IMG/VR virus record: IMGVR_UViG_3300045988_005753
Strand: one strand, 5' to 3'
Origin: a virus
Lineage: Duplodnaviria; Heunggongvirae; Uroviricota; Caudoviricetes
DNA: 64,000 nt
Shown here: positions 2,959 to 45,650 of the stretch, piece by piece
Numbering within the stretch: position 1 is the first letter of the stretch
Layout of the letters: each line of letters opens with the position of its first letter
Position numbers and translations under genes: made by a program
Notes under the pieces: model-generated
Seen by the model: the letters and a program-made list of their open reading frames with translations, nothing else
The model's database searches: none
What the model was told of the DNA's origin: nothing

Positions 2959-3376
2959 AAGCTCTCCGAATAACCCTATTAAGCATCTCTAAAGTCAGCT
3001 TTCCAGATTCTAAATGTGGCACAATAAGTTTTAAAGCTTTTTCAACATCATGCACAACATCTATTATACCTTCTGCATAGGCTTCTACAAGGATATCTTT
3101 TACATTTTGTGATTTACCTTTTTGTGGTATCACTAGACGCATATCAAACTTATTTGCTTGAGGATGGTTCTTACCTTGCCAATAACCGTCTTTGTTAAAG
3201 CTGATGTAGTCACCGTGGTAAAAGTGTACACCATTAGCTTTAAACTTCTCCAGCACAAGGCATTGAATTGGGTATTCAGTATTCCACTCCCTGACTCCTA
3301 TAACCTTCACTGTTGCGATGTACTCCTGTGTTTTTGCATCTATGATGTCAAGTTCTTGACCAGCTATGATTTGCAT
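2948..3376 (-). CDS. hypothetical protein
   Basis: ATG start; operon-like packing with neighbours. Confidence 0.5.
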   Translation of the reverse strand: MQIIAGQELDIIDAKTQEYIATVKVIGVREWNTEYPIQCLVLEKFKANGVHFYHGDYISFNKDGYWQGKNHPQANKFDMRLVIPQKGKSQNVKDILVEAYAEGIIDVVHDVEKALKLIVPHLESGKLTLEMLNRVIRRAYEN

Positions 3377-3429
3377 ATTCGCTACCTTCTAAGTTTCTAC
3401 AAAGGGGCTATCAAGTAACCCCTAAGTTA

Positions 3430-3654
3430 TTACTCAGACTTTTCAGTCTTCTTATCGGATTTCTTACTAGTCTTCTTCTCAGCTTTCTGCTCAGGTTCCT
3501 TCTCAGGAGTTGCCTTGATAACCATATCAAGAAGCTCTGATAAGTCACTCTTCAGCAAAGTAACAGGCTGCTCGTTGTAGAAGTTTTTGTCAAGATAAAC
3601 TTTAAACTCTTCTATAGAAGGAAATCCAAAAATTGGTACAGGTGTCTTAATCAT
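3430..3654 (-). CDS. small lysine-rich hypothetical protein
   Basis: ATG start with GGAGAG RBS; KK-rich C-terminus. Confidence 0.5.
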   Translation of the reverse strand: MIKTPVPIFGFPSIEEFKVYLDKNFYNEQPVTLLKSDLSELLDMVIKATPEKEPEQKAEKKTSKKSDKKTEKSE

Positions 3655-3730
3655 TACTTAGTCTCTCCATAGGCATCTTTTAAGATTGCCTTGTTAATCA
3701 TTTCAGCGATTGCAAAACGAACACACACAG

Positions 3731-4234
3731 CTATAATTGTAGGTTGCATTCTTTACTTACCTCTTCAAGTTTAACCTCAGAATCCTTAAGTCGTTTCTTA
3801 TGAACCCTGAATCTCATTAGTGAGATGATAATACCAGCTAAAGGAACAGTATACAAGTACCAGATATCATGTAGCTTTGCAGTAATCTGTGTAATGGTCA
3901 AGTCTTGAGCTATGTAGCTGATTGCTGATACGGCTAGCAATGTTGCTAAGAAGAAAACCAGTATCATAACAATATTCAGACAACCTCTGGCGTGGTATTC
4001 ATGCTTAATGCACTTATTCTTCTCTTCAACAACCCTGTTGTAGTCATTTGTAAAGTCTCTGTAGAAAGCTTTCAAGTATTCTTGATTGTAGCCTTCAAAG
4101 CAACCTGTACCATACCAATAATCACCACCAAAATGTGCTATGATACCAGTATCTCCATTTGGTTTGGTTACTCTTAAAGAAGTATGATGACGAGTATCCT
4201 GGTAATCTATCTTATATCTCTCTTCAAAAATCAT
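3731..4234 (-). CDS. membrane protein (one hydrophobic segment)
   Basis: ATG at 4234 overlaps the upstream stop (ATGA) and has a GAGGGG RBS; hydrophobic stretch IVMILVFFLATLLAVSAISYI. Confidence 0.55.
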   Translation of the reverse strand: MIFEERYKIDYQDTRHHTSLRVTKPNGDTGIIAHFGGDYWYGTGCFEGYNQEYLKAFYRDFTNDYNRVVEEKNKCIKHEYHARGCLNIVMILVFFLATLLAVSAISYIAQDLTITQITAKLHDIWYLYTVPLAGIIISLMRFRVHKKRLKDSEVKLEEVSKECNLQL

Positions 4235-10789: not shown

Positions 10790-12205
10790 ATGAGCGAATT
10801 ATTTAAACATGCGCACCTTCATGCAGGTCGAACTGAAAATGGTGCTGTAAACCATACTTCATCAATGTCTGCTCTTGTAGACTTTTACAAAGCTGCTGGT
10901 TCAAGCCGTAGCAATGTAGAAATCTTACCAGACCTGTTCTACAAAGCTTTGCGTGAGGATGTTGATGTTGCAGTTCGTATTTTACTGCATATGCGAGATG
11001 TACGAGAAGGTATGGGTGAGCGTAAAGCCTTCAGAACTGTTTTGCTTCAAGCGATTGAAGATAAAGTTTTAGAGCCTACGCAGGTTCTTCGCATTATGGA
11101 TAAGATTGCAGAGCTTGGTCGTTTTGATGACTTCAAAATCTTTGTAGGTACTCGTTTCGAGACAGATGCCTTCAAGCATTTAGAAGCAGCATTACTAGAC
11201 CCTGCAACAGCAGGTTTGGCAGCTAAGTGGTTACCACGAGTCAAACCACGTCATAAGCAGTTTGTAAAACGTTTCTGCAAGTTTGCAAACTTGAGTGAGA
11301 AAGAGTACCGCACACTGCTGTCTGCACTATCTGATACAGTTGAACAAAAAATATCTGCTAATGAGTTTGGTAAGATTGACTACAGTAAGATTCCTTCACT
11401 TGCTGCTGCACGTTACCAAAAGCTCTTTAACCGTAAAGATGGAGAACGCTACAAAGCTTACATTGAGTCCTTATCAAAGGGCGAGACTAAGATTAATGCT
11501 GGTGCTGTTTATCCATATGATGTGATTAAATCTATCAAGTATGGTAATGCAGATGTTGCTAATGAGCAGTGGAAAGCACTACCAAACTGGATGGCAGAAG
11601 GTGAAAACATCCTGTGTATGACTGATGTTTCAAGCTCAATGTCTTGGGTGAATCTTGGTTCAATCACTGCCCTTGATATTGGTGTATCCCTTGCCTTGTA
11701 TGTAGCAGAACGCAATACAGGTTGTTTTAAGAATGAGTTAATGGTTTATTCAACAAACCCTCATTTCATCGAACTGAGTGGTGATTTACGAAACCGTCAT
11801 CGTCAGGTAATGCGTCATGTTGAATATGGTTCAACTAACTTACAAGCAGCTTTTGACCGCATTCTTGAAATAGGTAAGAGAAACAACTTGACTCAGGAAG
11901 ATATGCCAAGTAAGCTTATCATCTTCTCTGATATGGAGTTCAATCAGGTTGACGGTGCAAATGGTCATACAAACTTTGAAGCAATTCAGAGTAAGTACAA
12001 AAAAGCTGGATATGAGATGCCACAATTGGTATTCTGGTACTTAGCAAACCGTAATGGTACTTGCGAAGTGTCTGTTAAGGATAACGGTGTAGCAATGGTA
12101 TCTGGTTTCTCTCCAGCCACTTTAAAAGCTCTGCTTGGTGGTGAGAAGTTTGACCCAATCAGCGTAATGCTCAAAGCAGTAATGATTGACCGCTATATCT
12201 GGTAA
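10790..12205 (+). CDS. vWA-domain protein, candidate Ro60/TROVE-like RNA-binding protein
   Basis: 471 aa; helical N-terminal part then a DxSxS MIDAS-type motif (DVSSSMS) typical of vWA folds; sits directly upstream of the tRNA array that contains Y-RNA-like elements. Confidence 0.55.
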   Translation: MSELFKHAHLHAGRTENGAVNHTSSMSALVDFYKAAGSSRSNVEILPDLFYKALREDVDVAVRILLHMRDVREGMGERKAFRTVLLQAIEDKVLEPTQVLRIMDKIAELGRFDDFKIFVGTRFETDAFKHLEAALLDPATAGLAAKWLPRVKPRHKQFVKRFCKFANLSEKEYRTLLSALSDTVEQKISANEFGKIDYSKIPSLAAARYQKLFNRKDGERYKAYIESLSKGETKINAGAVYPYDVIKSIKYGNADVANEQWKALPNWMAEGENILCMTDVSSSMSWVNLGSITALDIGVSLALYVAERNTGCFKNELMVYSTNPHFIELSGDLRNRHRQVMRHVEYGSTNLQAAFDRILEIGKRNNLTQEDMPSKLIIFSDMEFNQVDGANGHTNFEAIQSKYKKAGYEMPQLVFWYLANRNGTCEVSVKDNGVAMVSGFSPATLKALLGGEKFDPISVMLKAVMIDRYIW

Positions 12206-12532: not shown

Positions 12533-12537
12533 GTTTT

Positions 12538-12618
12538 GACAGAAGACCAATTACAGCAAACTTAATCTTATTCATCTGAAGGTAAATCGGACAAAGAAGA
12601 GATTTGGTCTGGTCATTA
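12538..12618 (+). ncRNA. stem-bounded structured element A (ACAGAAGACCAATTACAGCAA ... TTGGTCTGG)
   Basis: 5' AGACCAA pairs with 3' TTGGTCT; compensatory changes relative to elements B and C. Confidence 0.4.
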
Positions 12619-12700: not shown

Positions 12701-12705
12701 AATTT

Positions 12706-12776
12706 ACAGAAGACCGTTTACAGCAACATTTATTAAATTTTTAGCGGAAAAATTGAAAGATACGGTCTGGTAATAC
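12706..12776 (+). ncRNA. stem-bounded structured element B (ACAGAAGACCGTTTACAGCAA ... ACGGTCTGG)
   Basis: 5' AGACCGT pairs with 3' ACGGTCT; internal AATTTTT-AGCGG-AAAAATT hairpin. Confidence 0.4.
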
Positions 12777-12860: not shown

Positions 12861-12929
12861 AATTTAGGAGAGAAGCGATTGCTCACCGATTTGTAAGGTG
12901 CAAGTCCTTAGCCTGAATAGAAATTAAAT

Positions 12930-13100: not shown

Positions 13101-13124
13101 ATTTTGAGAGGGCTATTTAGCCCC

Positions 13125-13160
13125 TCCCTTAAAGAGTTCTTACGAGTATTCTTTAAAGGA
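13125..13160 (+). other. conserved hairpin (stem CCTTAAAGA/TCTTTAAAGG, loop containing TTCTTACGAG)
   Basis: same hairpin family recurs at 13974-14005 and 16466-16495, each time in a spacer of the tRNA array. Confidence 0.45.
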
Positions 13161-13161
13161 G

Positions 13162-13240
13162 CAGAAGGCCAAATACAGCAAGAATGTATGAAATTTCAAG
13201 CCAATTTAATTTTGAAAATTTAAAACTTGGTCTGGCTCAA
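13162..13240 (+). ncRNA. stem-bounded structured element D (AGAAGGCCAAATACAGCAAG ... TTGGTCTGG)
   Basis: 5' GGCCAA pairs with 3' TTGGTC (one G-U); same ACAGCAA core as A, B and C. Confidence 0.35.
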
Positions 13241-13247
13241 CAAATTT

Positions 13248-13385
13248 ACAGAAGACCGTTTACAGCAAAACTTAAACAATCTATTTCTCCGGTAAAGAAA
13301 AGGCGAAGGTTCGATTCCTTCACTCGGCAGATGTCGAGTTGGTGTAATGGTAGCACTTAAGATGATAAACAACGGTCTGGTAATT
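13248..13385 (+). ncRNA. candidate Y-RNA / YrlA-like tRNA mimic: closing stem around a circularly permuted tRNA-like module
   Basis: order read directly: 5' stem AGACCGTT, T-arm GAAGG-TTCGATT-CCTTC, acceptor 3' strand ACTCGGC, 4-nt loop, acceptor 5' strand GTCGAGT, D-arm GTGT-AATGGTA-GCAC, 3' stem AACGGTCT. Confidence 0.5.
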
Positions 13386-13529
13386 ATCTTTGTAGATAAG
13401 TTATTAAGCTTACCTGTGAGTATGCGACCACAAAGGGTGAATGGGTAAATTCTAGATTTAAACCCAAAAAGGCACATCGCTACAGACCTTAAGCAAGTCT
13501 GGGTAGCTTATCTACAAAGATAATTTAAT

Positions 13530-13605
13530 GGAAGTGTAGCAGAATGGTGATGCGGCAGACTTTTAATCTGACAGGCGATGGGTTCGAATCCCTCCACTTC
13601 TACCA
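13530..13605 (+). tRNA. tRNA-Lys (UUU)
   Basis: acceptor GGAAGTG/CACTTCT, loop CTTTTAA, T-loop TTCGAAT, CCA. Confidence 0.7.
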
Positions 13606-13609
13606 ATAT

Positions 13610-13686
13610 GGTTCAGTCGCAGATAAGGTAATGCAAGGGTCTCATAAGCCCTATGAATGTGGGTTCGATTCCCATCTGAACCTCCA
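13610..13686 (+). tRNA. tRNA-Met or tRNA-Ile2 (CAU)
   Basis: acceptor GGTTCAG/CTGAACC, anticodon stem AGGGT/GCCCT, loop CTCATAA, CCA. Confidence 0.7.
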
Positions 13687-13687
13687 A

Positions 13688-13763
13688 GCTGGTATAGTTA
13701 AGAAGGTTATAACACTCCCCTGATAAGGGAACATCGGTGGTTCGATTCCACCTACCAGTACCA
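13688..13763 (+). tRNA. tRNA-Ile (GAU)
   Basis: acceptor GCTGGTA/TACCAGT, D-stem GTTA/TAAC, loop CTGATAA, T-arm GGTGG-TTCGATT-CCACC, CCA. Confidence 0.7.
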
Positions 13764-13778
13764 ATTTCAATAAAGTTG

Positions 13779-13807
13779 TTGACATTGAGATGTGACTACT
13801 TTATAGT
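13779..13807 (+). promoter_or_regulatory. internal sigma70-type promoter within the tRNA array
   Basis: TTGACA, 17-bp spacer, TATAGT. Confidence 0.5.
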
Positions 13808-13973
13808 AACCTTAGTTTTCGTTGCGTAGCGTCTATTTTGCAAATTTAAAATAAATGCAAACGACAATGTTTTTCTGGCAGTAGCTTGATAGGCTAAACA
13901 CCAGTGAGGTCTTCCAATCCCTCATCAAAGAATTTGGCGTACTCGCCCACGGTATGATTAATAAGGTGGGCAT

Positions 13974-14005
13974 CTTTAAGGACTTTCTAAGAGAGTCTTT
14001 AAAGA
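13974..14005 (+). other. conserved hairpin (stem CTTTAAGGA/TCTTTAAAG, loop CTTTCTAAGAGAG)
   Basis: member of the TTCT(T)A(C/A)GAGAG-loop hairpin family. Confidence 0.45.
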
Positions 14006-14009
14006 TAAT

Positions 14010-14086
14010 GCACCCTTAGTTCAATTGGATAGAGCAACGGTCTTCTAAATCGTTAGTTACAGGTTCGAATCCTGTAGGGTGTACCA
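14010..14086 (+). tRNA. tRNA-Arg (UCU)
   Basis: acceptor GCACCCT/AGGGTGT, anticodon stem ACGGT/ATCGT, loop CTTCTAA, T-arm ACAGG-TTCGAAT-CCTGT, CCA. Confidence 0.75.
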
Positions 14087-14228
14087 AATAGTTAGCAGAT
14101 TACTTAGACTGCCTTAGCGGGTCTTCCTGTAGGGAGGTGGTCTGTATCTCATGTTTTCCAGAACATGTAAATAATCTGAGAAGAAGCTTGACAGTGTTGA
14201 GATAACAGGGTAAGCTTCGAATTATAAT

Positions 14229-14311
14229 ATGGGACGATGTTAAGACTCTAAGGCATGAGCAACGGCCTCCAAAACCGTTTCAAAGGGGTTCAACTCCTCC
14301 GTCCCATGCCA
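14229..14311 (+). tRNA. tRNA-like gene, probably tRNA-Trp (CCA), with an enlarged irregular D-region
   Basis: perfect 7-bp acceptor ATGGGAC/GTCCCAT, T-loop TTCAACT, CCA end, anticodon loop CTCCAAA; 83 nt. Confidence 0.5.
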
Positions 14312-14324
14312 AAGTCTTATTAGG

Positions 14325-14414
14325 GGTAGGTAGCGGCTAATGGCAGCCAAACAGTCTTGAAAACTGTTGCCACTGTAGAGATACGGTGAGGGTTCGACTC
14401 CTTTACTTACCGCC
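14325..14414 (+). tRNA. tRNA-Ser (UGA), long variable arm; CCA apparently not encoded
   Basis: acceptor GGTAGGT/ACTTACC, anticodon stem ACAGT/ACTGT, loop CTTGAAA, T-loop TTCGACT. Confidence 0.65.
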
Positions 14415-14565
14415 TAATAAGATTTACTCCGTCCATGCTTGTTCGCATTGTCGGTTTATCCCTCGTGTATTGTCGTACACTGTCAAAGCACCTAGTAGGT
14501 GTCATGGAGAGAGATAATATCAAGCTCTCCAAAGGTTCTAGTCACCGGATTAAACAAGACTATGC

Positions 14566-14588
14566 AAAGACCTAAATAGGTCTTTTTA
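14566..14588 (+). terminator. rho-independent terminator-like hairpin inside the tRNA array
   Basis: AAGACC-TAAATA-GGTCTT followed by TTTTT. Confidence 0.45.
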
Positions 14589-14591
14589 GAG

Positions 14592-14650
14592 GGCTTCTAA
14601 GGTTATTACAGCTTGTTGTGGAACCTTGTTGCTTAGGTTCTTAGAAGTTC
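14592..14650 (+). other. long hairpin (CTTCTAAGG ... CTTAGAAG)
   Basis: 8-bp inverted repeat around a 40-nt loop; related to the CTAAGG hairpin family. Confidence 0.35.
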
Positions 14651-14666
14651 TCTAAAAAGATTTAAT

Positions 14667-14744
14667 GGGAGATTGACGGTAATTGGTAAACCTACCATCC
14701 TTAGAAGTTGGTGTTTGAGGGTTCGAATCCCTTGTCTCCTACCA
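14667..14744 (+). tRNA. tRNA with anticodon UAG (Leu-type) but a short variable arm
   Basis: acceptor GGGAGAT/GTCTCCT, D-loop AATTGGTAA (Leu-like), anticodon stem CCATC/GTTGG, loop CTTAGAA, A73, CCA; 78 nt. Confidence 0.6.
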
Positions 14745-14751
14745 AATTAAT

Positions 14752-14827
14752 GCAGGTGTAGCAAAATGGTTATGCGGCTGACTCTTAATCAGTAAGACGA
14801 TGGGTTCAATTCCCTCCACCTGTACCA
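14752..14827 (+). tRNA. tRNA-Lys (CUU)
   Basis: acceptor GCAGGTG/CACCTGT, anticodon stem GCTGA/TCAGT, loop CTCTTAA, CCA; close paralog of the Lys(UUU) gene. Confidence 0.7.
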
Positions 14828-14833
14828 AACAAT

Positions 14834-14909
14834 GGGGTCATAGTTTATATGGTTAAAATTCGAGTTTTGCAAACTTGGGAACTGAGTTCAATTCTCAGTG
14901 ACTCCACCA
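14834..14909 (+). tRNA. tRNA-Ala (UGC)
   Basis: acceptor GGGGTCA/TGACTCC, anticodon stem CGAGT/ACTTG, loop TTTGCAA, T-arm CTGAG-TTCAATT-CTCAG, CCA. Confidence 0.75.
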
Positions 14910-14915
14910 ATTAGT

Positions 14916-14990
14916 GCATCCATAGTTTAAACGGGAAAATTACAGTCTTCCAAACTGAGGTTGAGGGTTCGATTCCCTCTGGATGCTCCA
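14916..14990 (+). tRNA. tRNA-Gly (UCC)
   Basis: acceptor GCATCCA/TGGATGC, loop CTTCCAA, T-arm GAGGG-TTCGATT-CCCTC, CCA. Confidence 0.7.
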
Positions 14991-14997
14991 AATTAAT

Positions 14998-15073
14998 GCT
15001 CCTATCGTATAATTGGTTATTACGGTTGCCTTGTAAGCAACTTATCAGGGTTCGAGTCCTTGTGGGAGCACCA
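14998..15073 (+). tRNA. tRNA-Thr (UGU)
   Basis: acceptor GCTCCTA/TGGGAGC, anticodon stem GTTGC/GCAAC, loop CTTGTAA, CCA. Confidence 0.75.
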
Positions 15074-15074
15074 A

Positions 15075-15165
15075 TTCAGAGGTCAAGTGAAAGACCGCTT
15101 TGAGTCAACTGAAGACCGTAACAAATTCCACGGAGTTGAGTTAGCGGCACAACTCCAGACCTCTT
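15075..15165 (+). ncRNA. structured spacer element E (long-range stem CAGAGGTC/GACCTCT, internal hairpin GGAGTTG...CAACTCC, GAAGACCGTAACAA motif)
   Basis: inverted repeats read directly; shares the GAAGACCGT core with elements A-D. Confidence 0.35.
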
Positions 15166-15169
15166 TCAT

Positions 15170-15244
15170 ACTCGCTTAGTTTATATGGTAAAACATCACC
15201 CTTACAAGATGAAGAAAAAGGTTCAAGTCCTTTAGTGAGTACCA
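15170..15244 (+). tRNA. tRNA-Val (UAC)
   Basis: acceptor ACTCGCT/AGTGAGT, D-stem GTTT/AAAC, anticodon stem TCACC/GATGA, loop CTTACAA, CCA. Confidence 0.7.
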
Positions 15245-15245
15245 T

Positions 15246-15323
15246 GTTCCAGTATCCCAATTGGCAGAGGATGCAAGCTCAAACCTTGTATTAGTGACGG
15301 TTCGAATCCGTCTTGGAACACCA
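15246..15323 (+). tRNA. tRNA with anticodon CAA (Leu-type) but a short variable arm
   Basis: acceptor GTTCCAG/TTGGAAC, D-loop AATTGGCAGAG (Leu-like), anticodon stem GCAAG/CTTGT, loop CTCAAAC, A73, CCA. Confidence 0.6.
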
Positions 15324-15328
15324 ATTTT

Positions 15329-15404
15329 GCAGGATTAGTTCAAATGGAAAGAGCAACAGTCTACGAAGCTGTTAATAGGGGTTCGAATCCCTTATCCTGC
15401 GCCA
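15329..15404 (+). tRNA. tRNA-Arg (ACG)
   Basis: acceptor GCAGGAT/ATCCTGC, D-stem GTTC/GAGC, anticodon stem ACAGT/GCTGT, loop CTACGAA, CCA. Confidence 0.75.
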
Positions 15405-15421
15405 GATAAAAAGGTGACACT

Positions 15422-15664
15422 ATGCAAACATTAACAGTAGTTGAACATGAAAACTGTGAGAGTATTGAGTTTGTCAGGGTCATTGGTGTTGAACACCACA
15501 TTTTCTTAAAAGTGGGATACTTATGTGACCCCGCTAGAGTAGAAAGATTTATACGTGATTGTTTTGGTGGTAGACATCTGAAGAGTGTTATTTTTGAGAC
15601 AGTTTTACCAGAAGGTTTAGAAACGAATAATAACATTTACCTCCTTACGAGGATTAGACAATGA
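15422..15664 (+). CDS. hypothetical protein embedded in the tRNA array
   Basis: ATG with AGGTGA RBS; ATGA coupling to the next ORF. Confidence 0.45.
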   Translation: MQTLTVVEHENCESIEFVRVIGVEHHIFLKVGYLCDPARVERFIRDCFGGRHLKSVIFETVLPEGLETNNNIYLLTRIRQ

Positions 15665-16218
15665 GATACTTAAAGTATGCTTCATGGATTTTCTTAGCTT
15701 TGTTAGAGCCATTTGCAGCAATCTTAGCAGTTATCTTAGCACCTTTCGTAGTTCCATTCTACAGTGAGAAGAAAGGACATCTACCTTTCGGGTTCAGATG
15801 GATGGAAACTTATGACAACCCAATTGATGGTGATGAAGGTCACGTTAAAAGATGGGCTAATATTAGATGGATTGGTAAACTAGGTGTCTACATGCAAAGA
15901 GTCGGATGGCTCTGGAGAAACAAAGCTTATAACTTCTCTTACCATGTATTAGGGAGAGATGTAAAAGATGTTACTAAGTGGAAAGGTAATATCAACGTAA
16001 GTTCTGACCCTGAAGATAATCAGACAGGTTATCTCCTAATGTGGAACAGTAATGCTTGGGGATTATTCGCTTTTATCCCATCAATTAAAATCTTTGGTAA
16101 ACAATTTTACTGGAGAATTTATATTGGATGGAAACTAAAAAGTGTTGTCCCAGAAGAAAGAGCATTCTCAAGGGAAAGAGTTATGTTGGCATTCTTTATT
16201 CATCCACTGAGAAAGTAA
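15661..16218 (+). CDS. membrane protein embedded in the tRNA array
   Basis: N-terminal hydrophobic segment WIFLALLEPFAAILAVILAPFVVPF; 185 aa. Confidence 0.5.
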   Translation: MRYLKYASWIFLALLEPFAAILAVILAPFVVPFYSEKKGHLPFGFRWMETYDNPIDGDEGHVKRWANIRWIGKLGVYMQRVGWLWRNKAYNFSYHVLGRDVKDVTKWKGNINVSSDPEDNQTGYLLMWNSNAWGLFAFIPSIKIFGKQFYWRIYIGWKLKSVVPEERAFSRERVMLAFFIHPLRK

Positions 16219-16226
16219 AGATTTAA

Positions 16227-16302
16227 AGGGGATTAGTTTACAAGGTTAAAACCTCGGTCTTTGAAATCGAAGAAGTTGGTTCAATTCCAACATCCCCCGC
16301 CA
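16227..16302 (+). tRNA. tRNA-Gln (UUG)
   Basis: acceptor AGGGGAT/ATCCCCC, anticodon stem TCGGT/ATCGA, loop CTTTGAA, T-arm GTTGG-TTCAATT-CCAAC, CCA. Confidence 0.7.
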
Positions 16303-16304
16303 AT

Positions 16305-16383
16305 GCTCCATTACTCCAATTGGCAGAGAGGCCAGACTTAAAATCTGTGTTATGTATCGGTTCGAATCCGATATGGAGTACCA
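16305..16383 (+). tRNA. tRNA with anticodon UAA (Leu-type) but a short variable arm
   Basis: acceptor GCTCCAT/ATGGAGT, D-loop AATTGGCAGAG (Leu-like), loop CTTAAAA, T-arm ATCGG-TTCGAAT-CCGAT, A73, CCA. Confidence 0.6.
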
Positions 16384-16388
16384 AATTT

Positions 16389-16464
16389 AGCGGTATAGCA
16401 TAACTGGCAATGCAGCAGTCTCTGAAGCTGTCTTATTAAGGTTCAAATCCTTATGCCGCTGCCA
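16389..16464 (+). tRNA. tRNA-Gln (CUG)
   Basis: acceptor AGCGGTA/TGCCGCT, anticodon stem GCAGT/GCTGT, loop CTCTGAA, CCA. Confidence 0.65.
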
Positions 16465-16465
16465 C

Positions 16466-16495
16466 TTCTAAGGATTCTTACGAGAGTCCTTAAAT
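16466..16495 (+). other. conserved hairpin (stem TAAGGA/TCCTTA, loop TTCTTACGAGAG)
   Basis: member of the TTCTTACGAG-loop hairpin family. Confidence 0.45.
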
Positions 16496-16571
16496 GTGGC
16501 CTTATCATAAATGGTAATGACCCATGCTGTGAACATGGTCTATACGGGTTCAAATCCCGTAGGTCACCCCA
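16496..16571 (+). tRNA. tRNA-His (GUG)
   Basis: acceptor GTGGCCT/AGGTCAC, D-stem TCAT/ATGA, anticodon stem CCATG/CATGG, loop CTGTGAA, CCA. Confidence 0.75.
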
Positions 16572-44084: not shown

Positions 44085-44195
44085 AGATTTTTTATAAGGC
44101 TACTGCCATCCTTCCATACATTACCTAACCAAGCCGAACATCACACAACCAGACCGAGCCGCACCCCGCCTTATTAAAAGACCCTGTTTAAAGAC
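44085..44195. repeat. CA-rich (GT-rich on the minus strand) repeat element, copy 1, with core TTAAAAGACCCTGTTTAAAGACCTTTTAAAAAGG
   Basis: aligned by eye to copy 2 at 45330-45650. Confidence 0.6.
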
Positions 44196-44222
44196 CTTTT
44201 AAAAAGGAGCCTCCAAAGAGGC
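44196..44222 (-). terminator. rho-independent terminator after the 44235-44675 gene
   Basis: AGCCTC-TTTG-GAGGCT hairpin followed by a T-run on the minus strand. Confidence 0.5.
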
Positions 44223-44234
44223 TACCTAGTCAAC

Positions 44235-44675
44235 TTAGAAAGGTTTTCTACGTTGCTTGTTAATGTTAGCTTTCATAGCAGCTAAATGGTTTTGCTGTTC
44301 AATTAGTCGTGAACGTTCTTGATGGCTAAGTGCCATAGTGTTCACATTCTCAATTGCTTGAGTGGCTTGCTTTAAAGCTCGACCAATCTTACCAGACATT
44401 TTACGTTTTGCAATAGTTGCTTGATGTTTAGGCTCAACCACACGATAACCAACACCCATTGAAGCAACCAGATAAATCTTCTCTTCTTTAAGAAGCTTTT
44501 CAATAAACTTCTCAAGTCGGTTTAGACGTGTAAGTGCATAAGCCTTCATTTCATCTTCGTACTTAACAATGTCACCTTGATAAGTTGGCTTCACAATACC
44601 TAAGAAGGTATCCATCTCAGAGTGTGATACAGTGTCACCGTAACTAAACTTTGCTGCTAATGCTTTTGTATTCAT
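44235..44675 (-). CDS. hypothetical protein
   Basis: 146-aa ORF. Confidence 0.5.
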   Translation of the reverse strand: MNTKALAAKFSYGDTVSHSEMDTFLGIVKPTYQGDIVKYEDEMKAYALTRLNRLEKFIEKLLKEEKIYLVASMGVGYRVVEPKHQATIAKRKMSGKIGRALKQATQAIENVNTMALSHQERSRLIEQQNHLAAMKANINKQRRKPF

Positions 44676-44677
44676 AA

Positions 44678-45283
<606 letters not shown>

Positions 45284-45329: not shown

Positions 45330-45650
45330 CTTTAGAAACTTGGTAGATTTTTAACGTGGCTACTACCATCCACCCATACCATACCATACCAAACCTGACC
45401 AAATCTTGCCGCACCCAACCTGACCTCGCCTAACCTTACCACACCTCATTAAAAGACCCTTTTAAAGACCTTTTAAAAAGGTAAGTCTCATTTTAATGTA
45501 GCTGAGACTAACTACCCATACCTTACCGCACCGGACCTTACCGGACCGCACATCGCCGCACCAAACCAAACATCACATTACCTGACCTCACCGCGCCTTA
45601 CCATACCTCACTTAAAAACCCTCTTAGAAAGACTCTTAAGTGATGCTGGT
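45330..45650. repeat. CA-rich repeat element, copy 2 (two CA-rich arms flanking the same TTAAAAGACCC...TTTTAAAAAGG core and a hairpin)
   Basis: shares GGCTACT(G/A)CCATCC and the 34-bp core with copy 1. Confidence 0.6.

What the first reader, a model, noticed from the sequence alone, without database searches (positions are those of the whole stretch)
13125..16495. Conserved hairpin family with a TTCTTACGAG-type loop recurring in the tRNA array
Hairpins at 13125-13160, 13974-14005 and 16466-16495 share a CTTAAAG/CTAAGG-type stem and loops containing TTCTTACGAG(A/T) or TTTCTAAGAGAG; a related longer hairpin lies at 14592-14650. None is followed by a clear U-tract, so they are unlikely to be simple terminators. 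They could be processing sites, protein-binding sites or homing-endonuclease targets.
Basis: seen in the sequence. Interest (0 to 1): 0.5.

Follow-up and report, generated by a model that had tools for sequence, protein, structure and literature searches.

The report
Conserved UNCG hairpins punctuating phage RNAs
Three near-identical RNA hairpins sit between the tRNA and other small-RNA genes of this Felix O1-like phage, recur in several unrelated enterobacterial phages, and most likely mark or protect RNA ends during processing: a familiar kind of element, but this family is uncatalogued.

Summary
The window is a Felixounavirus. H1 (13124-13161), H2 (13972-14006) and H3 (16462-16499) are stable hairpins on the tRNA strand. 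H1 and H3 share TTCTTACGAG, which occurs nowhere else in the 64 kb. Across Ounavirinae the stems change by compensatory or G.U substitutions, and the loop changes only UACG to UGCG. They are therefore sense-strand RNA hairpins capped by a UNCG tetraloop.

H2 is the 3'-terminal helix of a tmRNA-like RNA (tag ANDNVFLAVA). In Erwinia phages the same position holds a UACG-type hairpin. Every copy ends 0-7 nt before the next RNA module, usually a tRNA 5' end.

The family is not specific to tRNA arrays. The same apical sequence (R-UUCU-UNCG-AGAG-U) occurs in sense-strand intergenic regions of phiEco32-like phages, T5-like phages and an uncultured phage contig. Looser relatives lie at 44-46 kb of the window. 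The lower stem covaries freely while the apex stays fixed.

Best reading: RNA punctuation hairpins that cap or insulate ends, or act as processing signals. The fixed apex may be read by an unidentified factor. They are not terminators and not homing-endonuclease DNA targets. H4 (14577-14664) is a separate 25-bp helix. No Rfam family or paper describes the motif.

The parts
13124..13161 (+). H1: family hairpin with a UACG tetraloop (13141-13144). It lies between tRNA-Asp plus a small GC hairpin and Y-RNA-like unit 3.
   Evidence: Fold. Family model 53.6 bits. Fully conserved in 8 genomes, with the series A-U to G.U to G-C and a UACG to UGCG change among variants.
13110..13123 (+). Small GC hairpin (GGGCU-AUUU-AGCCC) directly 5' of H1
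   Evidence: Fold. Conserved, with variation only in the loop.
13972..14006 (+). H2: 16-bp hairpin with a UAA loop. It is the 3'-terminal helix of the tmRNA-like RNA and ends 3 nt before tRNA-Arg(UCU).
   Evidence: Sense -18.2 to -19.5 kcal/mol against -11.4 antisense. A-U/G.U/G-C and C-G/U.G variants. Family model 23 bits. Erwinia phages carry a UACG-type hairpin at the same position.
16462..16499 (+). H3: family hairpin (core 16469-16492, UACG at 16479-16482) that fills the 31-nt spacer between tRNA-Gln(CUG) and tRNA-His.
   Evidence: Fold. Family model 55 bits. Matches 415 phage records. Variants show A-U to G.U and UACG to UGCG. In L058 the stem is a perfect 18 bp that includes the tRNA termini.
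14577..14664 (+). H4: a separate conserved 25-bp helix closing a variable apical region. It ends about 3 nt before tRNA-Leu(UAG) and is not a family member.
   Evidence: RNAalifold gives 25 pairs, many G.U and one compensatory pair. No family-model hit.
13815..13971 (+). tmRNA-like RNA whose terminal hairpin is H2. It has a promoter at 13779-13807, a resume codon at 13857, tag ANDNVFLAVA, and stops at 13887-13892 in a helix-5-like hairpin followed by a pseudoknot.
   Evidence: Promoter. Tag and homologues. Weak Rfam tmRNA hits. No tRNA-like domain was found.
44169..44207 (-). Related H2-like hairpin directly after an intrinsic terminator, followed by GGUNN repeats.
   Evidence: Family model 29 bits. 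Sequence. Sense -11.1 against -8.3 kcal/mol antisense.
45444..45481 (-). Related H2-like hairpin followed by GGUNN repeats.
   Evidence: Family model 26 bits. Sequence. Fold.
45606..45645 (-). Related hairpin sharing CUUUCUAAGAG with H2. It lies about 45 nt downstream of a sigma70-like promoter and is followed by GGUNN repeats.
   Evidence: Family model 19 bits. Sequences. Sense -13.6 against -6.1 kcal/mol antisense.

Best explanation
H1, H2 and H3 are copies of one RNA hairpin module. It is made on the same strand as the tRNAs. It has an AU-rich lower stem that is free to covary, and a fixed apex, R-UUCU-[UNCG]-AGAG-U.

The module acts as punctuation in the phage's long, largely non-coding precursor transcripts. 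It sits, with linkers of only 0-7 nt, between independently folding RNA units:
- tRNA-Gln | tRNA-His
- tRNA-Asp | Y-RNA-like unit
- tmRNA-like RNA | tRNA-Arg

The proposed sequence of events is as follows. RNase P cuts at the 5' end of the downstream tRNA, and RNase E or another endonuclease cuts in the AU linkers. The hairpin is then left as the terminal cap of the neighbouring fragment. There it blocks 3'-to-5' exonucleases and keeps neighbouring modules from mispairing. For H2 this would define and protect the 3' end of the tmRNA-like RNA.

The fixed apex suggests the hairpin is also read by a trans-acting factor, which I could not identify.

**Shown:** the structure, the strand, the conservation, the positions and the distribution.
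**Inferred:** the cleavages, the protection and any reader.
For: **RNA structure under selection on the sense strand.**
- In 15 distinct family members, 90.4% of cells are paired.
- 12 of 17 pairs change on both sides.
- The covariation score is 0.491 against 0.226 in shuffles (0 of 500 shuffles reach it). Slid controls pair in 58% of cells or fewer.
- There are 23 G.U cells against 9 A.C cells.
- H2-type hairpins fold much better in sense than antisense: -18.2 vs -11.4 and -14.8 vs -4.7 kcal/mol.

**The loop is a UNCG tetraloop.** The loops seen are UACG, UGCG (twice, independently) and UCCG.

**Position.**
- H2 ends 3 nt before the next tRNA and H3 1-3 nt before it.
- The Erwinia copy ends 1-7 nt before its tRNA.
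- H1 abuts Y-like unit 3.
- Other spacer RNAs also end in a helix 3-4 nt before a tRNA: H4, and the 22-bp inverted repeat at 13382/13525.

**Link to the tmRNA-like RNA.** H2 and the Erwinia UACG hairpin occupy the same place at the 3' end of that RNA, although different tRNAs follow.

**Intergenic and sense-strand in other phage lineages.** Copies lie 5 nt after a stop codon, directly after terminators, or 5-25 nt before the next ribosome-binding site.

**Not efficient terminators.** There is no U-tract. H3 is 1-3 nt from tRNA-His, leaving no room for a promoter that could restart transcription.
Against: - There are no RNA-end data, so no cleavage or protection is shown.
- An exonuclease barrier right after the CCA of tRNA-Gln (H3) would hinder 3' maturation of that tRNA unless an endonuclease cuts between them.
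- A hairpin reaching position -4 of a pre-tRNA leader could slow RNase P rather than help it.
- Stability alone does not explain why the apical 14 nt are fixed across unrelated phages while the lower stem drifts.
- The tetraloop is closed by U-A, not the extra-stable C-G.
- In the UNCG-type copies, sense and antisense folding energies differ little (-14.6 vs -13.2 kcal/mol on average).
Confidence: 0.45

Rival explanations
1. The hairpins are cleavage sites for host RNase III or another double-strand-specific endonuclease. Cutting them would split the array transcript into segments, as the RNase III sites of T7 do between its genes.
For: - H4 is a 25-bp helix, the inverted repeat at 13382/13525 has 22 bp, and H2 has 16-18 bp. 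All are near the size RNase III cuts.
- In L058, H3 is a perfect 18-bp helix that includes the CCA end of tRNA-Gln and the first 4 nt of tRNA-His. A cut at its base would separate the two tRNAs.
- The copies are intergenic and on the sense strand in several phages.
- The comparison with T7 sites rests on my own knowledge.
Against: - H3 in most genomes has only 10-11 pairs, and H1 has mismatches. Both are short for E. coli RNase III.
- As far as I know, RNase III has no strict requirement for an apical sequence or a tetraloop, so the fixed apex is unexplained.
- No cleavage data exist.
Confidence: 0.22
2. The apex (R-UUCU-UNCG-AGAG-U) is a sequence-specific binding site for a protein. Because the phage lineages are unrelated, a host protein is the likelier reader. 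Binding would give an RNP with a regulatory or protective role.
For: - The apical 5 pairs and loop are fixed in Ounavirinae, Gordonclarkvirinae, a T5-like phage and contig L055, while flanks and lower stems are unrelated or covary.
- A Ro60-like gene and Y-RNA-like units lie beside the array (PMC11482910).
Against: - No candidate protein was identified.
- No similar sequence of 20 nt or more exists in E. coli genomes that would point to mimicry of a host operator.
- H1 (AGUA instead of AGAG) and H2 (UAA loop) depart from the apex yet are conserved.
- The Ro60-like gene was not examined in the T5-like or phiEco32-like phages that carry the hairpin.
Confidence: 0.2
3. The hairpins are DNA-level elements: recognition sites for homing endonucleases, or repeated joints for recombination (PeSL-like). 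The RNA hairpin would then be incidental.
For: - In relatives, an HNH gene replaces tRNA-Arg starting 3 nt after H2. Another HNH gene sits right after H4, and different tRNAs follow H4 with the breakpoint exactly at the junction.
- The related modules at 44-46 kb flank a two-gene cassette that is absent from many Salmonella Felixounaviruses.
- The same 20 nt in unrelated phages suggests horizontal spread.
Against: - Compensatory changes pass through G.U intermediates, which pair only on the sense strand.
- All non-coding copies are on the transcribed strand.
- Breakpoints lie beside the hairpins, not inside them.
- The hairpins are kept in genomes with no adjacent HNH gene, including this window.
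Confidence: 0.1
4. The hairpins are weak intrinsic terminators or pause sites that tune how much transcription continues down the array.
For: - The Michonne record annotates the H3 counterpart as a terminator.
- The 3' arms are U-rich (UCCUUAAAU, UCUUUAAAG).
- Several copies directly follow genuine terminators.
Against: - There is no U-run after any copy.
- The stems are AU-rich, unlike the phage's genuine terminators, which have GC stems and a run of five or more U.
- Termination at H3 would abolish tRNA-His and tRNA-Phe, which have no promoter of their own.
Confidence: 0.07

Closest known systems
Intercistronic C(UUCG)G hairpins of phage T4 mRNAs (Tuerk et al. 1988, cited from memory)
   Same: Both are short, very stable hairpins capped by a UNCG tetraloop. 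Both recur between genes in a virulent coliphage on the sense strand, and both are thought to stabilise or organise transcripts.
   Different: Here the closing pair is U-A rather than C-G, and the stem is AU-rich. A 14-nt apical sequence is fixed across unrelated phages. Copies lie inside a tRNA and small-RNA array and at the end of a tmRNA-like RNA.
RNase III processing sites of T7-like phages (own knowledge)
   Same: Both are families of similar intergenic hairpins that punctuate polycistronic phage transcripts. After cleavage the T7 sites leave protective terminal hairpins.
   Different: T7 sites are longer, about two helical turns with an internal loop. H1 and H3 have 10-15 pairs and no such loop. 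Cleavage has not been tested here.
Intrinsic (Rho-independent) terminators
   Same: Both are stem-loops at gene boundaries. One counterpart is annotated as a terminator in Michonne.
   Different: The family has no U-tract and no GC-rich stem. Essential downstream tRNAs have no promoter of their own.
PeSL (promoter-early stem-loop) cassettes of T4-type phages (Arbiol et al. 2010, cited from memory) and bacterial REP elements
   Same: Both are short repeated intergenic stem-loop motifs in plastic genome regions. Gene cassettes are gained or lost at the repeats. REP hairpins also protect upstream mRNA.
   Different: The array copies have no promoter inside them. The sequences are unrelated. Here there is direct evidence for selection on RNA pairing.
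Terminal or closing helices of structured small RNAs released from tRNA precursors (for example 3'ETS-type RNAs; own knowledge)
   Same: The RNA 3' end is made by RNase P cleavage at the next tRNA, and a terminal helix protects it. This fits H2 and the tmRNA-like RNA.
   Different: H1 and H3 enclose or terminate no obvious cargo RNA.

Membership tests
Intrinsic terminator | Run of U directly after the stem | tested here: not met
   The flanks are GCAGAAGG, AAUGCACC and AUGUGGCC. The consensus terminator scan does not list them.
Intrinsic terminator | GC-rich stem | tested here: not met
   The hairpins have 31-42% G+C. Genuine terminators of the phage are GC-rich.
Intrinsic terminator | Lies at the end of a transcription unit | tested here: not met
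   H3 is 1-3 nt from tRNA-His and H2 is 3 nt from tRNA-Arg, with no promoter in between.
UNCG-tetraloop hairpin | 4-nt loop of the form U-N-C-G | tested here: met
   UACG in H1 and H3, with UGCG and UCCG in variants and paralogues. H2 is the exception, with a UAA loop.
UNCG-tetraloop hairpin | C-G closing pair (the extra-stable cUNCGg form) | tested here: not met
   The closing pair is U-A in all 15 members (pair 17-22).
RNase III substrate | About two turns (20 bp or more) of mostly regular double helix | tested here: inconclusive
   H4 has 25 bp, H2 has 16-18 bp, H3 has 10-11 bp (18 bp in L058), and H1 has about 15 bp with 2 mismatches.
RNase III substrate | Staggered cleavage by RNase III | not testable with these tools
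   This needs in vitro cleavage, or comparison of RNA ends in rnc mutant and wild-type hosts.
Homing-endonuclease target or DNA palindrome | Conservation of the DNA word irrespective of strand and of RNA pairing | tested here: not met
   Changes are compensatory or G.U on the sense strand. All non-coding copies are on the sense strand.
Homing-endonuclease target or DNA palindrome | An endonuclease gene inserted at or next to the site | tested here: inconclusive
   HNH genes follow H2 in heid and H4 in Michonne. Most genomes, including this window, have none there.
Any Rfam family | Match to a curated covariance model | tested here: not met
   No hit on the hairpins at E of 1 or below in the window or in other phages.
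tmRNA (the host element of H2) | Resume codon and tag reading frame ending in stop codons inside a helix-5 hairpin | tested here: met
   AUAAAU-GCA..., tag ANDNVFLAVA followed by two stops. Tags are conserved with coding-type variation in 5 other phage groups.
tmRNA (the host element of H2) | Pseudoknots downstream of the tag | tested here: met
   The hairpin GUGAGG/CCUCAU covaries, and its loop CCAA/CCAG/CCGA covaries with UUGG/CUGG/UCGG. This rests on few sequences read by eye.
tmRNA (the host element of H2) | tRNA-like domain in cis, with acceptor stem, G3.U70 and CCA | tested here: not met
   ARAGORN finds none in the window or in 25 related loci. Its single 'permuted' call, in Mordin, stitches together separate elements. 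Rfam scores are below threshold.

The most novel reading that the evidence does not exclude
The fixed apex (R-UUCU-UNCG-AGAG-U) is a recognition tag read by a specific host or phage factor. It would mark a set of phage non-coding RNAs, namely the tmRNA-like RNA, the spacers next to the Y-RNA-like units and the GGUNN-repeat RNAs, for a shared fate such as processing, protection or assembly into an RNP. The tag would have spread horizontally among unrelated virulent enterobacterial phages. In that case this would be a portable RNA address label, not a generic stable hairpin.
Probability: 0.2. Interest if true: 0.7.

Novelty: new member of a known kind. Interest (0 to 1): 0.45.

Why it matters
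Phage tRNA arrays are usually annotated as tRNAs separated by junk. Here the spacers turn out to be organised RNA:
- a conserved hairpin module
- four Y-RNA-like units beside a Ro60-like gene
- a tmRNA-like RNA

The hairpin family gives a concrete handle for asking how a 5-kb non-coding precursor is cut into more than 30 stable RNAs. Compensatory mutants can be made in a tractable phage such as Bas63.

The presence of the module in unrelated coliphages suggests a shared host-dependent step. If that step can be identified, the module could also serve as a compact insulator or processing part for engineered phage and bacterial transcripts.

Tried and rejected
- **Sarcin-ricin loop mimic.** The loops share UACGAGAG with 23S rRNA. 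I rejected this because the UACG to UGCG/UCCG changes and H1's GAGU do not fit the bulged-G/GAGA motif, and the flanking bases do not fit either.
- **Anticodon-arm or T-arm mimic.** The registers give mismatches, and the putative 'anticodon' would vary.
- **boxA-like antitermination site.** Only a 7-nt resemblance (UCUUUAA), and it lies inside a helix.
- **Ribosome-binding-site sequestration.** UAAGGA pairs with UCCUUA, but no suitably placed ORF exists in the array.
- **Kissing partner.** No complement of the loop occurs in the array.
- **Host mimicry.** No match in 5,426 E. coli genomes.
- **Literature search for the sequence itself.** One hit, in an unrelated human lung-cancer paper.
- **Transcript maps for Felix O1-like phages.** Searches found none.
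- **Degenerate IMG/VR scan** (AGRRTTCTTNCGAGAGTYYTT). The extra hits lie inside ORFs or a giant-virus repeat and were discarded. L071 is also inside an ORF and was left aside.
- **tRNA-like domain for the tmRNA-like RNA.** None found. ARAGORN's permuted call in Mordin is a chimera.

Full report
**Identity of the window.** The region is the tRNA array of a Felix O1-like myovirus. ARAGORN finds 26 tRNAs on the + strand between 12371 and 17578. The 5.3-kb array is 97.6% identical to Felixounavirus AN17P8, and 233 phage records cover at least 80% of it.

**Checking the observation.**
- H1 (13124-13161) has about 15 pairs and a UACG loop.
- H2 (13972-14006) has 16 uninterrupted pairs and a UAA loop.
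- H3 (core 16469-16492) has 10 pairs and a UACG loop.

They fold well below shuffled controls, with z-scores of -2.9, -5.3 and -4.2. TTCTTACGAG occurs exactly twice in 64 kb, both times as these loops. No copy is followed by a U-run.

The 'related longer hairpin' is real, but it is a different object. It is a 25-bp helix at 14577-14664 that closes a variable apical region. The family covariance model does not detect it.

**It is an RNA structure on the tRNA strand.** I compared Felixounavirus, Suspvirus, Mooglevirus and IMG/VR relatives.
- H1 is almost invariant. Where it varies, it runs A-U to G.U to G-C at one pair and repairs a C.A mismatch to C-G at another.
- H2 shows A-U, G.U and G-C at one pair, and C-G or U.G at others.
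- H3 shows A-U to G.U.
- The loop changes only UACG to UGCG. This happened independently in H1 (L035) and in H3 (L003).
- On 11 orthologues and paralogues, 88.5% of cells pair, and covariation exceeds all 500 shuffles.
- G.U intermediates pair only in the sense orientation. For H2-type hairpins the sense fold is 7-10 kcal/mol better than the antisense fold.

**Anatomy of the surroundings.** Each hairpin is wedged between two folded RNA units.
- H3 fills the 31-nt spacer between the CCA of tRNA-Gln(CUG) and tRNA-His.
- H2 ends 3 nt before tRNA-Arg(UCU).
- H1 follows tRNA-Asp and a small GC hairpin, and abuts the next unit.

That next unit is one of four repeats at 12537-12616, 12704-12774, 13159-13239 and 13246-13384. 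All four share one architecture: a covarying 4-bp lower helix, an AGA/G internal loop, a 7-bp helix AGACCAA/UUGGUCU, then UUACAGCAA. The fourth repeat carries a T-arm, a closed acceptor stem that covaries between genomes, and a D-arm. This is the layout of bacterial YrlA Y RNAs (PMC4201824).

The gene just upstream of the array (10790-12205) is a DUF2828/vWA protein. Its Bas63 homologue gp130 is described as structurally similar to Ro60 (PMC11482910).

**H2 belongs to a tmRNA-like RNA.** Downstream of a strong sigma70-type promoter (13779-13807; this is P45 of Felix O1, PMC3185647) lies AUAAAU-GCA AAC GAC AAU GUU UUU CUG GCA GUA GCU UGA UAG. This is a tmRNA-style resume site and tag, ANDNVFLAVA.
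- The stop codons sit in a helix-5-like hairpin.
- A hairpin follows whose stem covaries.
- The loop of that hairpin covaries with a downstream segment, which makes a pseudoknot.

Homologues with tags ANEEMYLAVA, ANDDVVLMAA, ANDNAYLAVA and ANDAQFLAVA occur in unannotated gaps of Carvajevirus, an N4-like phage, an Ackermannviridae phage, another Klebsiella phage and Erwinia Kolesnikvirus. Rfam gives only sub-threshold tmRNA hits.

ARAGORN finds no tmRNA, apart from a chimeric 'permuted' call in Mordin. That kind of call probably explains the ssrA reported for phage Moogle (PMC4319497). I found no tRNA-like domain in cis, so I do not classify the element as a bona fide tmRNA.

The link to the finding is positional. 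H2 is the last helix of this RNA. In Erwinia phages the same position holds a UACG-type hairpin (CUAAAAGGUUCU-UACG-AGAGUCUUUCAG), followed by a different tRNA, Leu-CAA. H2 is therefore an orthologue of the UACG type. H1 and H3 are solo copies of the same module.

**The family is wider than the tRNA array.**
- A blastn of the 36-nt H3 against 50,697 phage records finds it in Ounavirinae, in phiEco32-like Gordonclarkvirinae and in T5-like Epseptimavirus.
- In ECBP2 and Bas92 the hairpin AAGGAUUCU-UACG-AGAGUCCUU lies 5 nt after a stop codon, with no tRNA nearby.
- ECBP2 has a second copy with a UCCG loop, directly after a terminator.
- In phage S126 the hairpin lies in the tRNA region, 25 nt before an ORF that precedes tRNA-Arg(UCU).
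- In IMG/VR contig L055 it follows a capsid-like ORF and a UUCG terminator, about 5 nt before the next ribosome-binding site.
- All these copies are on the sense strand.

In the 15-member alignment, 12 of 17 pairs change on both sides. These changes are all in the lower stem. The apical five pairs and the loop never change on both sides.

Exact-word scans of IMG/VR return about 15-20 chance hits per 15-mer. Those hits have no hairpin and no tRNA context, which calibrates the background.

Searching the window with the model also finds looser, H2-like hairpins on the minus strand at 44169-44207, 45444-45481 and 45606-45645, where the local genes are also on the minus strand. In a complete relative, the only copies scoring above 50 bits are the H1 and H3 counterparts.

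**Mechanism.** Four things are shown.
- There is a sense-strand RNA hairpin with a UNCG loop.
- Its apex is fixed and its base is free to covary.
- It is always packed between folded RNA or gene units with very short linkers.
- It is independent of any one neighbour: different tRNAs follow it in different phages.

From this I infer punctuation as the most economical reading. After RNase P cuts at the next tRNA, and an endonuclease cuts in the AU linkers, the hairpin becomes a terminal cap. The cap stops 3' exonucleases and insulates folding. For H2, this would set the 3' end of the tmRNA-like RNA.

The main weakness is that stability alone does not explain the fixed apex. The two nearest rivals are therefore cleavage by RNase III, favoured by the longer helices and the 18-bp L058 variant, and a specific protein reader.

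A terminator role is unlikely. There is no U-tract, the stems are AU-rich, and the downstream tRNAs have no promoter. A DNA-level homing-endonuclease target is unlikely because of the G.U-mediated covariation and the strand bias. Even so, HNH insertions and tRNA replacements in relatives begin exactly at the hairpin|tRNA junction, so the modules do coincide with recombination joints.

**Comparison with what is known.** The closest analogues are the intercistronic C(UUCG)G hairpins of T4, the RNase III sites of T7, REP-type stabilisers and the PeSL cassettes of T4-type phages. All four comparisons rest on my own knowledge.

This family differs in several ways:
- a U-A closing pair
- an AU-rich stem
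- a 14-nt apex fixed across unrelated phages
- placement inside a small-RNA array

No Rfam model, no paper in the searchable library and no E. coli sequence matches it.

**Verdict.** The family is a new member of a known kind of element. Interest is moderate. The surrounding array, with its Y-RNA-like units, tmRNA-like RNA and GGUNN-repeat modules, is arguably more surprising than the hairpins themselves.

Noticed in passing
window 12537-12616, 12704-12774, 13159-13239, 13246-13384 (+); gene 10790-12205 (+): Four Y-RNA-like units sit between tRNAs. Each has a covarying 4-bp lower helix, an AGA/G internal loop, the helix AGACCAA/UUGGUCU and then UUACAGCAA. The fourth has a T-arm, a closed and covarying acceptor stem and a D-arm, as in bacterial YrlA. 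They lie just downstream of a DUF2828/vWA gene whose Bas63 homologue is described as Ro60-like (PMC11482910, PMC4201824). No record that I inspected annotates them.
   Followed up: partly
window 13779-13971 (+); L046-L049, L008: A tmRNA-like RNA: promoter, resume codon at 13857, tag ANDNVFLAVA followed by two stops, a helix-5-like hairpin and a covarying pseudoknot. No tRNA-like domain was found in cis. Homologues at about 80% identity occur in unannotated gaps of unrelated phages (Carvaje, IME11, SKML-39, ZC2, Erwinia phages). In wV8 and ESh20 the region is annotated as a minus-strand hypothetical protein, probably wrongly.
   Followed up: partly
window 44120-44165, 45373-45445, 45515-45607 (-): Tracts of pentamer repeats, (GGUNN)n, lie directly downstream of the H2-like hairpins. 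GGTNNGGTNNGGTNNGGT with up to 1 mismatch is found 19 times against 0.07 expected, all on the minus strand in this region. One module starts about 45 nt after a sigma70-like promoter that shares the AAGTTGTTGACAT box with the tmRNA-like promoter. The layout resembles the binding tracts of ring-shaped RNA-binding proteins. The function is unknown.
   Followed up: partly
window 44235-45280 (-); L094, L095: The two genes phrog_4652 and phrog_5926 are flanked by hairpin plus GGUNN modules. They are absent from many Salmonella Felixounaviruses, where a single module remains. The repeats therefore mark a gene-cassette insertion or deletion.
   Followed up: partly
window 13382-13403 / 13504-13525 (+): A 22-nt inverted repeat, 95% complementary, encloses about 100 nt and ends 4 nt before tRNA-Lys(UUU). 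It is probably the closing helix of another spacer RNA.
   Followed up: no
window 14229-14310 (+): A tRNA-like sequence with a perfect 7-bp acceptor stem and a T-arm, but a 9-nt anticodon loop (CCUCCAAAA) and an odd D region. ARAGORN does not call it. Rfam gives a tRNA-Sec hit of 23 bits, and wV8 annotates the counterpart as a pseudo-tRNA.
   Followed up: no
window 12861-12929 (+): A degenerate tRNA-like remnant with the T-arm-like sequence AAGGUGCAAGUCCUU lies between tRNA-Asn and tRNA-Tyr.
   Followed up: no
window 14566-14588 (+): A small terminator-like hairpin, AAAGACC-loop-GGUCUUU followed by UU. Its 3' half and U-run also form the 5' strand of the H4 basal helix, so the two pairings are alternatives. 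The same arrangement, a terminator whose U-rich tail is the 5' arm of the next hairpin, recurs at 44.2 kb, in L055 and in the second ECBP2 copy.
   Followed up: partly
L003 (heid) 2365-2890; L002 (Michonne) 3276-3856; L019, L025, L035, L005: In relatives, an HNH endonuclease gene replaces tRNA-Arg(UCU) starting 3 nt after H2, and another sits directly after H4. A different tRNA (GCACCUAUAGCC...) follows H4 in several genomes. The breakpoints fall exactly at the hairpin|tRNA junction.
   Followed up: partly
L058 (IMG/VR 2706796783) around 5688: An H3 variant in which AAAU is replaced by AGAA. This turns the hairpin into a perfect 18-bp helix, CCACUUCUAAGGAUUCU/AGAGUCCUUAGAAGUGG, which pairs the CCA end of tRNA-Gln with the first 4 nt of tRNA-His.
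   Followed up: no
L052 (Salmonella phage S126) 431-895: About 470 nt are unannotated between a tRNA with anticodon UCA and the family hairpin. There is no Rfam hit and no tmRNA-like tag. It may be another spacer RNA.
   Followed up: no
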